This document shows positions 1 to 3,000 of a stretch of DNA of 7,245 bases, piece by piece. Every line of letters starts with the position of its first letter. Positions within the stretch are counted from its first letter, which is position 1. A program made the position numbers. The DNA is from a virus. Taxonomy: Duplodnaviria > Heunggongvirae > Uroviricota > Caudoviricetes. The stretch is from the IMG/VR virus record IMGVR_UViG_2537561510_000012. One strand, given 5' to 3'.

Positions 1-3000
1 AACCAGTATCCCGTCCCCACCGCTGACGTGGTGTATGACACACCCGTTGTGATTTTTTCCATCTGGTACATACCCCGTCTCCCGCAATCCGGAAGCTCAC
101 AACAACAGGAGGGGCATCAGCTCACACCGACAGCCCCTGCGTATGGTTACATCATCATTTCGCCGCCAGGCTGAGGCTCACTGCTACCGTCAGGCTGAGA
201 CACAACGCCATCTGAAACAGCACTGTCACCCGCGCCGTCTTCAGGCTCAGGAGCAGCCGGTCCCCCCAGCAGCTCATCCAGAATGGCATCCACTTCAGCA
301 TCAAGACGCGCCTCAAGATTCTGGCGGAGTTGCTGTTTCAGTGCGCTTCTGACTTCTTCAGAGCGCAGGACGTCCTTCACTGCTTCAGCAGTGACCAGAG
401 ATTTTATTTCTGACATGGGATTTTCTCGTTGAAAGGTGTTGTTAAGAAAGTTGCTACGAAATGAGAGGCTCTTCGGGTTTTGTTCCGGCTGACTGGCTGG
501 CGCTGATTTTTTCCGCCGCCGCGGCATCAATCTTTTTGCGTATATAGTTCCGGATAACCTTATACCCGCCACTTACCAGATATAACGTGCACACCACCGT
601 GCAGAAATACAATAAAATAAGCTGTACAAATCTCATTATCCCTCCCGGTTATTGATATGGTGTTGACATCGTTAATACCTGTTGGTTAAAAAAGTGTCCT
701 GCATGTTTTGCTTTGGATATAACGACATTTGCCGCCGGTTCTGGCTCCTTGTTTTCCCTGCCCCGGCGGCCTTTTTTTCCTGCTTACGGGTTATTCACTT
801 CCACTGTTATACTTTCAATCAGCACCGGATATGTCGCACCGCTAGTGATATCGGTCACGCGCAATTTGTCTGCCGTAAACGTGCCGACCGGTGACTGTGA
901 CAGCATGAACGGCGTCCCGTCCTTACCATCAATGACCGGCGTCACCTCAATACTGTTGTTACCGGCAAAACGGAAGCCCAGCGTATGCCATTCGTTATCA
1001 AATGCGCCGAATGACCCCAGCTTCGTGTTCTGACCAGCATTTCCCTTGTGGTACATCACATTAAGGTCTGTGGCATCGCTCTGTACGTAAAACGACGCCA
1101 GCAGGTTATGACCGGCATTACCTTCCAGTGTGACACCCTGAGGCAGTGAAGAAACCGGCCAGTACAGCGCCAGTGCGTACTGATTAGCTGTCAGTGTGCC
1201 ATCAACTTTAAAACGACAACTGATAAGCCCGCCCTTCTCCAGCAGGTCTGCGCCATTACCGGCATCATGCTGCATAAACCACGAGGAACTTCCTGTCTGT
1301 TTGGTCCACCTCAGCGCCTTACCTCCTGCAGCACCTGCATCATCAACTACCAATGCACGCCCTCCTTCAGCTCCCCATCCCTGCGGATTCAGTAAACCAC
1401 CTGACTCTGTTGCACGGTAATAAAGCAGCGTTGTCACTGATTTCCCGTCCGTTGACGGTGTTGATGGTGTGTCCGGTGACGGCTTCTCATCCGGCGGCAT
1501 CACAACCTGTTCCCCACCCACCAGTTCAGCCGTCCGTCCTGCATGGAGAAGAATCGCTGAGGCAAGACGGTCAGAAATAATCCCCCTGCGTGCCCATGAG
1601 CTGAAATGGCTCGCACGGTCTGCTGACGTCCAGTTTGCCGACGTCCGGGAGGCCGCACCGTAATATCCTGATGCCGGAATATCCGGGTCTTCTTCCGGTT
1701 TGTTCGTCGGGACATTTGCTCCGTTCTCATCGGTCATGAACGGCACAAAGTGAATATTCTTTTCCGTTTTGTTTTTGTAACTGCCGTACACCGTCTGGTA
1801 AGTGGATTCGCTCTTCTGCTTCCAGAAATAAGTTGTGTCTCCACATATCCAGGGAACACCGTCAGCAGAACCACCAGCGCACTGTCCCACCATATCTGCA
1901 AGGTCCGTACGATATTGTTCCACTACTTCTGTAAAACGGGCTGTGTGATTTGCTGGCGTTCCGTCAAAGTCAAATTCCCCCTGCATCCACACCACGGCAA
2001 GCAGCACATTTTTCGGGTTCTTTGCCAGCGCGGCTTTTGTACGACCGATGAGATCCTTATACAGCGGCCTGCCCACACCCCAGCGGCGCTTTCAGAATAT
2101 TGTCCAGGTCACGGCGGCGCTTATCCGGTGGCTCGGCAATAATCTTTATCGCCAGCCTTCCGGACAGGCTTAATTTCAGCCGCTGCTGGCGAACAATAAG
2201 CGCCACAGCCCGGCGATAACGCTCACCGGCTTTTGATACAAAATATGTGCTGCCACGACGTCGCCAGTAGGTGTTCACCGTCGGCGGGTAAGGTAAAACC
2301 AAATCTATGAGCATCAGTCACCTCTTTTACCCGAGCACGCCAGTCGCAAAGGCGTGATCAAGAAAACGAAAAATTAACTCAATCTGAGAGCCGTACTTTT
2401 TCTCAAACTCCAGCGGGTCTGCATGAAGTTCGTTGTGGTGCTCCCGGCACAACGGTAGCGTGAAAATATCGTGGGCCTTTGTCCCCATTCCCCCCTGACC
2501 ATGACCAATCAGGTGATGCGGATCGTCAGCAGGCTTACCACAACACGCACACGGCTGTGTCTTTACCCAGCGCGTGTATTTCTCATTAACCCAGCGGCAA
2601 CGTTTAGGCCGCCTCATGAACGATTCAGGAGACTCCGGATCAACGGCGATACTGACAACCGTTTTTTTCTGTGGTGGATTTTGTTGCTGGTGGACGTGAA
2701 GTGGCAGCGCAATATTTTTTGTGCGCTGCTTCAGTATGCTGATGGCTGTCTGTTCTCCCGGTACGATGTCACTCTCACGGTATACGGAGCGGATTTTTTC
2801 CGCTGGTAATCCCAGCGAACGACGCGCTACTGCCTCAGGTAGTGCATCCACCACCTGATTGCAGGCCGCCCACCAGGATAATTCAGCCAGCGATAATTCA
2901 CGCTCCTGTGTGCCATTCATTGCGTGACGAATGACGTCAATCATCCATGCTGACAGGTTTTGGTGAGCAAGTTGCTCAAGTGATTCGGAGGTCTGGTCAC

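What the first reader, a model, noticed from the sequence alone, without database searches (positions are those of the whole stretch)
663..780. Possible ~80-nt + strand small RNA convergent on the nanS remnant
A perfect -35 TTGACA (663-668) with a weak -10 would start transcription near 700. About 30 nt further on is an 8-bp GC stem (731-738 / 763-770) followed by seven T's (772-778), oriented to terminate + strand transcripts. There is no credible + strand CDS here; the overlapping + ORFs lack an RBS and shadow minus-strand genes. This is the only strong + strand signal pair in the window.
Basis: seen in the sequence. Interest (0 to 1): 0.4.

Follow-up and report, generated by a model that had tools for sequence, protein, structure and literature searches.

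The report
Known prophage small RNA EcOnc33

Summary
All the described signals are present on the + strand: TTGACA at 663-668, an 8-bp all-G/C stem at 731-738/763-770 with a 24-nt loop, and T7 at 772-778. A hairpin plus T-run of this quality arose in only 2 of 300 shuffles.

The 147-bp spacer is identical to the ECs1527 (nanS-p)/ECs1528 spacer of Sakai prophage Sp6. The northern probe published for EcOnc33 (Tree et al. 2014) is the exact reverse complement of window 696-730. That paper reports an Hfq crosslinking peak in 5 of 5 datasets, a predicted Rho-independent terminator and a band of about 71 nt. The peak converts to window 692-739.

RNase E-CLASH reads (Waters et al. 2017) run from about 699/700 to 777 and include hybrids joining the two stem arms. 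The best-supported partner is the arcA translation start.

In related prophages the -35, an 18-bp spacer, the TAAAAA -10, the stem and the T-run are all kept, across indels and with one compensatory pair.

PasA/PasC and Esr41-like RNAs occupy the same slot elsewhere, but EcOnc33 shows no significant sequence similarity to either.

Verdict: a real sRNA gene, already known, with its function still untested.

The parts
652..657 (+). Upstream degenerate copy of the -35 (TTGATA). It is one half of an 11-bp tandem duplication and reads as a perfect TTGACA in several other alleles.
   Evidence: Alleles with an 11-nt deletion keep a single TTGACA at the same 18-bp distance from TAAAAA.
663..668 (+). 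-35 hexamer TTGACA of the EcOnc33 promoter.
   Evidence: It is the only TTGACA in the window. It is kept in all EcOnc33-type alleles and in the Esr41-like alleles of the same slot.
687..692 (+). -10 hexamer TAAAAA, 18 bp from the -35.
   Evidence: It is conserved as TAAAAA or TAAAAC across alleles, and the spacing survives an 11-nt indel. Promoter function is inferred, not measured.
699..778 (+). EcOnc33 sRNA as predicted from the signals (78-80 nt; about 71 nt on the published northern blot).
   Evidence: The probe matches 696-730. CLASH fragments begin at 699/700 and reach 777. The 5' ends reported for PasA and PasC align with C699.
692..739 (+). Published Hfq-CRAC peak (Sakai version 1 coordinates 1557089-1557136, minus strand) converted to window coordinates.
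   Evidence: Searches give the peak. The conversion (version 1 coordinate = 1557828 minus window position) rests on three independent CLASH read mappings that agree.
699..730 (+). Largely unstructured 5' region; the candidate seed is about 699-719 (CUGCAUGUUUUGCUUUGGAUA).
   Evidence: The fold of 699-778 leaves this region almost unpaired. The multi-read CLASH hybrids with arcA and ECs0890 both use this stretch.
731..770 (+). Terminator hairpin: arms 731-738 and 763-770, with a 24-nt pyrimidine-rich loop at 739-762.
   Evidence: Across 16 alleles 92% of cells are paired, against 24-63% for slid controls; one pair changes from G-C to A-U and one from G-C to G-U. A CLASH intramolecular hybrid cluster of 99 reads joins the two arms.
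772..778 (+). U-tract of the intrinsic terminator and the probable site where Hfq binds the 3' end.
   Evidence: A CLASH fragment ends at 777. The T-run is conserved in all alleles.
784..2076 (-). 5'-truncated nanS-p-type sialate O-acetylesterase remnant, convergent with the sRNA.
   Evidence: Pfam SASA (C-terminal part) plus DUF6645. It is truncated by a 2.67-kb deletion relative to Sakai Sp6.
454..636 (-). DUF1378 gene, divergent from the sRNA promoter. Its start codon lies 27 nt from the -35.
   Evidence: Pfam DUF1378, E = 5.8e-40; annotation of identical loci.

Best explanation
Window 663-778 (+) is the gene for EcOnc33, an Hfq-associated small RNA carried by Sp6-type lambdoid prophages of E. 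coli O157:H7 and related strains.

A sigma-70 promoter (TTGACA, 18-bp spacer, TAAAAA) starts transcription at about 699-701. An intrinsic terminator (8-bp G/C stem, 24-nt loop, U7) stops it at about 777-778. The product is an RNA of roughly 78-80 nt that runs convergent to the esterase gene and divergent from DUF1378.

Shown by published experiments on the identical sequence: in vivo Hfq crosslinking, a discrete band of about 71 nt on a northern blot, and RNase E-associated hybrids with other RNAs.

Inferred: it acts in trans like a classical Hfq-dependent base-pairing sRNA, using its unstructured 5' 20 nt as the seed. The best-supported candidate target is the arcA translation initiation region, where pairing across the start codon should block ribosome binding and lower ArcA.
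For: Identity:
- The spacer is identical to Sakai Sp6, and window 1-2086 is 99.95% identical to Sp6.
- The EcOnc33 probe is the reverse complement of 696-730.
- Table S2 of Tree et al. 2014 lists an Hfq-CRAC peak in 5 of 5 datasets, AUC 2.6e7, a predicted Rho-independent terminator and a northern band of about 71 nt.

RNA ends and structure:
- CLASH fragments map to 699/700-721 and 756-777, and a 99-read hybrid cluster joins the stem arms.
- The fold gives z = -3.5; a comparable hairpin plus T-run appeared in 2 of 300 shuffles.

Conservation:
- 363 of 5426 complete E. coli genomes carry the spacer; copies at 81-87% identity keep the stem arms and T-run unchanged and keep the -35 and -10 elements.
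- An 11-nt deletion preserves the -35/-10 spacing, and loop indels leave the arms intact.
- 92% of stem cells pair, against 24-63% in slid controls, with one G-C to A-U compensatory pair.

Target:
- The arcA (ECs5359) x EcOnc33 hybrid has 5 unique reads, was replicated, was recovered in both orientations, overlaps an Hfq site and has FDR 2.7e-4.
- My duplex prediction pairs 699-727 with arcA -22..+7 at -22.4 kcal/mol, against -13.9 +/- 2.75 for shuffled seeds (14 of 2000 as good).

Independence from the neighbouring gene: in this window the Q antiterminator gene and the 5' part of the esterase gene are deleted, yet the sRNA gene is intact.
Against: - No transcription start or 3' end was measured here. 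The published size (about 71 nt) is 7-9 nt shorter than the signals predict.
- The CRAC peak and one CLASH cluster begin at 690-692, upstream of the predicted start. This may be padding of cluster edges or may indicate a different start.
- Hfq-dependent stability was not tested for EcOnc33; the delta-hfq column of Table S2 is blank.
- The arcA link rests on 5 hybrid reads plus a prediction, and no reporter assay exists.
- Several alleles carry G705T, which breaks the pair with the C next to the arcA AUG.
- No paper in the searched library mentions EcOnc33 in its main text.
Confidence: 0.85

Rival explanations
1. Its main role is in cis. As a perfect antisense to the nanS-p/DUF1378 spacer of the Q-dependent late transcript, it would trigger duplex cleavage or transcriptional interference, and so tune or delay expression of the downstream DUF1378-DUF826-holin-lysozyme cassette. 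This is compatible with, and could add to, a trans role.
For: - It is fully complementary to any late transcript that crosses the spacer, simply because of where it sits.
- Every allele of the slot keeps the same position and convergent orientation just upstream of the lysis cassette, even when the transcribed sequence is unrelated: EcOnc33-type and Esr41-like, PasA/PasC.
- The list of PasA target-motif sites derived from RIL-seq targets includes the 3' end of its own neighbouring esterase mRNA.
- The promoter overlaps the DUF1378 5' leader.
Against: - In this window the Q gene, the region downstream of Q where PR' is expected, and the 5' part of the esterase gene are deleted. No late transcript from PR' can cross the spacer, yet the sRNA gene is unchanged.
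- Hfq binding and hybrids with core-genome mRNAs point to trans activity.
- No experiment links any allele to lysis timing.
Confidence: 0.25
2. It is an sRNA sponge (anti-sRNA), like AsxR and AgvB from the same prophage families. Its real partners would be core-genome sRNAs rather than mRNAs.
For: Prophage sRNAs of O157 convergent on late-region genes were shown to work this way (Tree et al. 2014). EcOnc33 is one of the more strongly Hfq-crosslinked orphan RNAs in the part of Table S2 that I read.
Against: - The conserved AsxR/AgvB core is absent from the window.
- EcOnc33 lies downstream of the esterase gene, not between the moron and the esterase gene.
- At about 80 nt it is longer than the 51-60 nt anti-sRNAs.
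- The EcOnc33 hybrids I could read are with mRNAs, rRNA or itself, not with sRNAs. I read only part of the tables.
Confidence: 0.1
3. There is no functional RNA. The hairpin and T-run only insulate the esterase gene from stray antisense transcription, and the detected RNA is a by-product of a fortuitous promoter.
For: The -10 is weak (4 of 6). A single TTGACA is not statistically unusual. No phenotype is known.
Against: - The RNA is abundant enough for a northern band and for a top-tier Hfq-CRAC signal in 5 of 5 datasets.
- The promoter spacing is preserved across an 11-nt indel, and the promoter-plus-terminator architecture is kept in every allele examined.
- Replicated hybrids with specific mRNAs exist.
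Confidence: 0.05
4. The + strand signals serve a small protein: ORF 682-894 or 713-1033, or the internal ATG at 703.
For: Open reading frames exist on the + strand.
Against: - They have no Pfam match, and I saw no Shine-Dalgarno-like sequence ahead of their start codons.
- They run straight through the terminator into antisense esterase sequence.
- 1-, 2-, 6-, 11- and 15-nt indels among the alleles break any reading frame.
Confidence: 0.01

Closest known systems
EcOnc33 (Tree et al. 2014, Mol Cell 55:199; E. coli O157:H7 Sakai prophage Sp6)
   Same: It is the same sequence, strand and genomic position. The published probe matches exactly, and the Hfq-CRAC peak and CLASH reads map onto the predicted RNA.
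   Different: Nothing differs in the sRNA gene itself. The window's prophage copy carries a 2.67-kb deletion of the 3' end of rusA, the Q gene and the 5' part of nanS-p that Sakai Sp6 lacks.
PasA / PasC (Pearl Mizrahi et al. 2021 Sci Adv; Zhu, Shabalina & Storz 2026 bioRxiv) and their EHEC homologues EcOnc51/52
   Same: - They occupy the same slot, between the prophage sialate esterase gene and the lysis cassette, in the same convergent ('> < >') orientation.
- They are about 80-85 nt long, associate with Hfq, and end in a G/C stem with an unusually large loop followed by a U-run.
- The promoter regions share TTGACA...CTGT...AAAA-TGTxCTGC, and the reported PasA/PasC 5' ends align with C699.
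   Different: - blastn finds no similarity across the transcribed region. The global alignment score is only weakly above shuffles (PasC 0 of 500 shuffles as good, PasA 9 of 500; PasA-versus-PasC scores 40.5, against 0.5 and 7 for EcOnc33).
- The PasA seed GCCAGCACCU is absent and the stem sequence differs.
- The PasA/PasC loci examined in E2348/69 lack DUF1378 and DUF826.
- The original paper names EcOnc51/52, not EcOnc33, as the EHEC homologues of PasA.
Esr41 (EcOnc14) and the Esr41-like alleles found here in the esterase/DUF1378 spacer of other prophages
   Same: The slot, promoter layout (TTGACA, 17/18 bp, TAAAAA), orientation, and hairpin plus T7 abutting the esterase stop codon are all the same. 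The terminator arms share the core CCGCC(G/A)G...C(C/T)GGCGG.
   Different: The transcribed body is unrelated. The local alignment of EcOnc33 against Esr41 or group B is not significant (124 and 169 of 1000 shuffles as good), whereas Esr41 against group B scores 28 compared with 8 +/- 1.5 for shuffles. The UUUCUCCAUGGG seed is absent from the window.
AsxR / AgvB anti-sRNAs (Tree et al. 2014)
   Same: They are prophage-encoded, Hfq-bound, short, and convergent on late-region genes downstream of PR'.
   Different: They lie between the moron CDS and the esterase gene, are 51-60 nt long and share a conserved 42-nt 3' region. That core is absent from the window, and EcOnc33 lies on the other side of the esterase gene.

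Membership tests
EcOnc33 (specific sRNA gene of O157:H7 Sakai Sp6) | Sequence identity with the ECs1527/ECs1528 intergenic region of Sakai Sp6 | tested here: met
   Window 637-783 is identical to NC_002695.2 1557186-1557332. Window 1-2086 is 99.95% identical to Sp6.
EcOnc33 (specific sRNA gene of O157:H7 Sakai Sp6) | The published northern probe is antisense to the proposed RNA | tested here: met
   The reverse complement of the probe AAATGTCGTTATATCCAAAGCAAAACATGCAGGAC matches window 696-730 (+) with no mismatch and nowhere else in the window.
EcOnc33 (specific sRNA gene of O157:H7 Sakai Sp6) | The published Hfq-CRAC peak and CLASH reads fall on the predicted transcript and strand | tested here: met
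   The peak at 1557089-1557136 (minus strand) converts to window 692-739 (+). The conversion is fixed by three concordant read mappings.
Hfq-dependent trans-acting base-pairing sRNA (class) | Rho-independent terminator with a U-tail of 6 or more | tested here: met
   An 8-bp G/C stem followed by U7. The stem is conserved, with one compensatory pair.
Hfq-dependent trans-acting base-pairing sRNA (class) | Binds Hfq in vivo | not testable with these tools
   Published for the identical sequence: CRAC peak in 5 of 5 datasets, AUC 2.6e7 (Tree et al. 2014, Table S2).
Hfq-dependent trans-acting base-pairing sRNA (class) | Stability depends on Hfq | not testable with these tools
   The delta-hfq column is blank for EcOnc33 in Table S2, so this appears never to have been tested.
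Hfq-dependent trans-acting base-pairing sRNA (class) | A seed pairs with, and regulates, trans-encoded mRNAs | tested here: inconclusive
   Replicated CLASH hybrids with the arcA translation start (5 reads, FDR 2.7e-4) and with ECs0890. Duplex of -22.4 kcal/mol against -13.9 +/- 2.75 for shuffled seeds. No regulatory assay exists.
PasA/PasC family | Located between the prophage sialate esterase gene and the lysis cassette, convergent on the esterase gene | tested here: met
PasA/PasC family | Recognisable sequence similarity of the transcribed RNA to PasA or PasC (the blastn criterion used to define the family) | tested here: not met
   blastn-short finds only 8-9-nt words with E>1. Global alignment scores are 0.5 (PasA) and 7 (PasC), against 40.5 for PasA versus PasC.
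PasA/PasC family | PasA seed GCCAGCACCU overlapping the terminator arm | tested here: not met
   The corresponding arm here reads GCCGCCGGUU.
Esr41 family | Seed UUUCUCCAUGGGG and Esr41-like body | tested here: not met
   The motif is absent even with 2 mismatches allowed. The local alignment is not significant.
AsxR/AgvB anti-sRNAs | Conserved 3' core of about 42 nt; position between the moron and the esterase gene | tested here: not met
   The core pattern is absent even with 3 mismatches allowed. The position is on the other side of the esterase gene.
Rfam families (all 4227) | Covariance-model match over 663-778 | tested here: not met
   The only hits in the window are sok (3974-4148, minus strand) and a sub-threshold isrK match (3734-3815, minus strand). 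EcOnc33 is not represented in Rfam 15.

The most novel reading that the evidence does not exclude
Two untested readings survive.

(1) EcOnc33 represses arcA by pairing its 5' end (CUGCAUGUUU...GCU) across the arcA start codon. An Sp6-type prophage would then have a direct post-transcriptional grip on the host's master aerobic/anaerobic regulator.

(2) The esterase/DUF1378 spacer is a conserved 'sRNA cassette slot' of lambdoid prophages. The promoter (TTGACA, 18 bp, TAAAAA), the orientation and the terminator position are fixed, while the seed-bearing body is exchanged between unrelated sRNAs: EcOnc33-type and Esr41-like, with PasA/PasC at the equivalent site in prophages that lack DUF1378. Prophage recombination would then shuffle regulatory specificities as modules.
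Probability: 0.3. Interest if true: 0.55.

Novelty: already known. Interest (0 to 1): 0.27.

Why it matters
The finding shows that a sequence-only reading recovered a genuine, experimentally detected prophage sRNA from its promoter and terminator alone.

The RNA itself is not new. It has been in the supplementary tables of two papers since 2014 and 2017, but it was never named in a main text, is not in Rfam, and has no assigned function.

The useful additions here are:
- a precise anatomy in sequence coordinates;
- evidence that its promoter and terminator are under selection;
- the observation that unrelated sRNAs (Esr41-like, PasA/PasC) occupy the same slot next to the lysis genes;
- a concrete, testable target hypothesis (arcA) drawn from existing CLASH data.

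If the arcA link holds, it would connect a cryptic O157 prophage to redox and anaerobic regulation in the gut.

Tried and rejected
- Rfam at a permissive threshold found nothing over 637-783.
- The GenBank phage collection gave no match to the spacer in near or distant mode. The element is seen in chromosomal prophages and in IMG/VR prophage contigs instead.
- A pattern scan of one genome per species returned 28 hits, all in unrelated taxa. I read these as generic G/C terminators, and they say nothing about distribution.
- The stem-anchored viral scan was set aside for conservation arguments because the pattern forces the stem to be present. I replaced it with DUF1378-anchored loci.
- blastn of PasA, PasC and the second PP2 unit against the window found no similarity.
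- The AsxR/AgvB core and the Esr41 seed are both absent.
- + strand ORFs were rejected: no Pfam match, and their frames are broken by indels.
- My first guess that ORF 2057-2314 was DUF1737 was wrong. It is a RusA fragment.
- Full-text searches for 'EcOnc33', ECs1527/1528 and the seed sequence returned nothing.
- The supplements of Sy et al. [quoted passage not shown]
- Duplex energies of variant alleles against arcA were too diffuse to show whether the pairing is conserved.
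Full report
**1. The observation**

The window sequence shows, on the + strand:
- TTGACA at 663-668;
- GCCGCCGG at 731-738, pairing perfectly with CCGGCGGC at 763-770 around a 24-nt loop;
- one C, then T7 at 772-778.

The RNA fold of 690-782 is -29.3 kcal/mol, with z = -3.48 against dinucleotide shuffles. A scan I wrote for an 8-bp perfect stem, a 3-30 nt loop and a run of six or more T within 2 nt finds only this site on either strand. Only 2 of 300 dinucleotide shuffles contained any such site. The consensus scan tool misses it because it limits loops to 8 nt.

One TTGACA is not unusual by itself: 1 observed against 4.5 expected. The best -10 is TAAAAA at 687-692, 18 bp downstream of the -35.

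**2. Context**

All genes in the window are on the minus strand. Pfam, annotated identical loci and Rfam give this order:
- hok/sok;
- DUF968 (2327-3376);
- a RusA fragment (2057-2314);
- a 5'-truncated sialate esterase with the C-terminal part of SASA plus DUF6645 (784-2076);
- the 147-bp spacer (637-783);
- DUF1378 (454-636);
- DUF826 (147-416);
- then, in the identical annotated loci, the holin gene.

The sRNA candidate is therefore convergent on the esterase gene and divergent from DUF1378, just upstream of the lysis cassette.

Window 1-2086 is 99.95% identical to prophage Sp6 of E. coli O157:H7 Sakai. At 2080-2086 the window jumps 2.67 kb relative to Sp6. The missing segment holds the 3' end of rusA, the Q antiterminator gene, the region where PR' is expected, and the first 635 nt of nanS-p. 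'nanS remnant' is therefore correct.

**3. Identity**

A literature search led to Tree et al. 2014 (PMC4104026). Their Table S3C lists the northern probe for 'EcOnc33' as AAATGTCGTTATATCCAAAGCAAAACATGCAGGAC. Its reverse complement matches window 696-730 (+) exactly and uniquely. The Sakai Sp6 spacer is identical to the window spacer.

Table S2 of that paper describes EcOnc33 as:
- located in Sp6, on the minus strand of Sakai;
- an Hfq-CRAC peak at 1557089-1557136 that passes in 5 of 5 datasets, with AUC 2.6e7, among the highest values in the part of the table I read;
- carrying a predicted Rho-independent terminator;
- giving a northern band of about 71 nt;
- not tested in delta-hfq.

The RNase E-CLASH tables of Waters et al. 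2017 (PMC5286369) contain EcOnc33 reads together with their mapped coordinates. Three of them fix the conversion 'Sakai version 1 coordinate = 1557828 minus window position':
- CCTGCATGTTTTGCTTTGGAT;
- TGCATGTTTTGCTTTGGATA;
- CCCTGCCCCGGCGGCCTTTTTT.

With this conversion the Hfq peak is window 692-739. sRNA fragments start at 699/700 and reach 777. A 99-read intramolecular hybrid cluster joins the two stem arms (CCTGCCCCGGCGGCCTTT|ATTTGCCGCCGGTTCTGG).

No paper in the searchable library names EcOnc33 in its main text, and Rfam has no model for it.

**4. Conservation**

The spacer occurs in 363 of 5426 complete E. coli genomes. In 309 of them it is at least 99% identical; these are mostly O157:H7 and include O103:H2. 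A minority of copies are 81-87% identical.

In those divergent copies the stem arms and the T-run are invariant. The loop carries a 6-nt indel and the 5' region carries point changes.

To avoid circularity I collected loci through the neighbouring DUF1378 protein and extracted the spacer from each. Every spacer contains the same layout: a convergent unit made of TTGACA, 17-18 bp, TAAAAA, a body, a G/C hairpin and T7, abutting the esterase stop codon.

Within the EcOnc33-type alleles, an 11-nt deletion removes one copy of a tandem TTGAYA duplication yet leaves TTGACA exactly 18 bp from TAAAAA. This is the strongest argument that these two hexamers are the working promoter.

On a 16-allele alignment, 92% of the stem cells pair, against 24-63% when the 3' arm is slid. 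One pair changes from G-C to A-U in six sequences, probably as a single event, and one changes from G-C to G-U in three.

**5. Relation to known families**

PasA and PasC are Hfq-dependent sRNAs of 79-85 nt in EPEC E2348/69. They lie between the prophage sialate esterase gene and the holin/lysozyme genes, in the same convergent orientation.
- Their promoter regions share TTGACA...CTGT...AAAA-TGTxCTGC with the window. Their reported 5' ends align with window C699.
- Similarity of the promoter segment exceeds all 500 shuffles.
- The transcribed bodies show no blastn similarity. Global alignment scores are 0.5 and 7, against 40.5 for PasA versus PasC.
- The PasA seed is absent.

I therefore do not file EcOnc33 as a PasA/PasC member. 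It is a positional and architectural analogue, possibly a very distant relative.

The other alleles found in the DUF1378-linked slot are clear Esr41 relatives: local score 28 against 8 +/- 1.5 for shuffles. EcOnc33 is not, and the Esr41 seed is absent from the window. The AsxR/AgvB core is also absent, and those RNAs lie on the other side of the esterase gene.

**6. How it most likely works**

Shown by others on the identical sequence: in vivo Hfq binding, a discrete small transcript, and association with RNase E together with other RNAs.

Inferred here: transcription starts at about 699-701 from the TTGACA/TAAAAA promoter and ends at 777-778. The first 30 nt or so are essentially unpaired and act as the seed.

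The highest-scoring EcOnc33 interaction in Table EV7 is with ECs5359:
- 5 unique reads, replicated, recovered in both orientations, overlapping an Hfq site, FDR 2.7e-4;
- ECs_5359 is arcA;
- the hybrid covers the arcA ribosome-binding region and start codon (AUUUAGGUAGCAAACAUGCAGACCC).

My duplex prediction pairs sRNA 699-727 with arcA -22..+7 at -22.4 kcal/mol. Shuffled seeds give -13.9 +/- 2.75, and 14 of 2000 are as good. This geometry predicts translational repression, but that step is untested.

A second hybrid (ECs0890, 2 reads) uses the same 5' stretch. Several single-read hybrids involve the hairpin and its loop.

A cis-antisense effect on the late transcript that feeds the lysis genes is a plausible additional role. 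The conserved position of every allele suggests it. However, it cannot be the only role: in this window the Q gene and the region where PR' is expected are deleted, while the sRNA gene is intact.

**7. Caveats**

- No 5' or 3' end was measured here. The published size of about 71 nt is 7-9 nt shorter than predicted.
- The CRAC peak and one CLASH cluster begin at 690-692.
- Some alleles carry G705T, which weakens the arcA duplex.
- I read only parts 1-2 of 18 of Table EV7, plus targeted searches, so the partner list is incomplete.

**8. Verdict**

The feature is the already described but functionally uncharacterised sRNA EcOnc33. Novelty: already known. Interest is low to moderate, and rests on the arcA lead and on the 'cassette slot' pattern.

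Noticed in passing
window 2080-2086 (junction); compare L003 213-2883: Relative to Sakai Sp6 the window carries a 2.67-kb deletion with a 7-bp overlap at the junction. It fuses a truncated rusA (2057-2314) to the middle of nanS-p and removes the Q antiterminator gene and the region where PR' is expected. This prophage copy should be unable to make a Q-dependent late transcript. No complete E. coli genome in the collection holds the whole window as one collinear stretch.
   Followed up: yes
window 3824-4148 (-): A hok/sok type I toxin-antitoxin locus (Rfam sok, 114.9 bits; hokD-like annotation in related loci). By general knowledge of hok/sok systems, the Sok antisense RNA would be a second + strand small RNA in the window, so EcOnc33 is probably not the only + strand signal. 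I did not map the Sok promoter.
   Followed up: partly
window 3734-3815 (-): A sub-threshold Rfam isrK match (27 bits against a cut-off of 50) overlaps a strong minus-strand terminator (AACCCGC-TTCG-GCGGGTT plus a T-run, 3738-3755). It probably marks the 3' end of the hok mRNA rather than an IsrK homologue.
   Followed up: no
window 648-670 (+): An 11-bp tandem duplication, TTGATATGG-TG-TTGACATCG, gives two -35-like hexamers. Other alleles have two perfect TTGACA copies or, after an 11-nt deletion, only one. The spacing to TAAAAA is always preserved.
   Followed up: partly
L151, L154, L163, L168, L172 and others; about 90-145 nt upstream of DUF1378, opposite strand: In many other prophages, including a 60,942-bp contig, the same esterase/DUF1378 spacer carries a clear Esr41 homologue (TTTTCTCCATAGGTATTACCACCGCCAGCG...) behind the same TTGACA/TAAAAA promoter. 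At least three subtypes (B, C, D) differ in their 5' regions and in their hairpins.
   Followed up: partly
L002 2767-2875 (-), E. coli E2348/69 prophage PP2: Downstream of PasA lies a second complete promoter-body-terminator unit that abuts the esterase stop codon and resembles PasC. It coincides with the 3' end of the 236-nt 'minor' PasA form. That form may be read-through of PasA into this second unit, or the second unit may be a separate sRNA.
   Followed up: partly
window 745-758 (+), terminator loop: The loop contains a conserved pyrimidine stretch, CUCCUUGUUUUCCC, which resembles an anti-Shine-Dalgarno sequence. It is kept even in alleles with a 6-nt loop deletion. A few single-read CLASH hybrids involve this part, so it could be a second interaction site.
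   Followed up: no
L133, L134, L136, L141, L143 (EcOnc33-type subtype A2): A subtype with a 15-nt insertion that duplicates the GCAT(N)TTTTGCT seed motif. Some copies also have a 3' arm reading ACGGCGGT, which loses the innermost pair and turns the outermost into G-U.
   Followed up: no
L009 1501-1554 (plasmid NZ_CP076711.1): An isolated copy of only the terminator hairpin part of the element sits on a 69-kb plasmid, between an aminotransferase pseudogene and an IS3-family transposase pseudogene and outside any prophage context.
   Followed up: no
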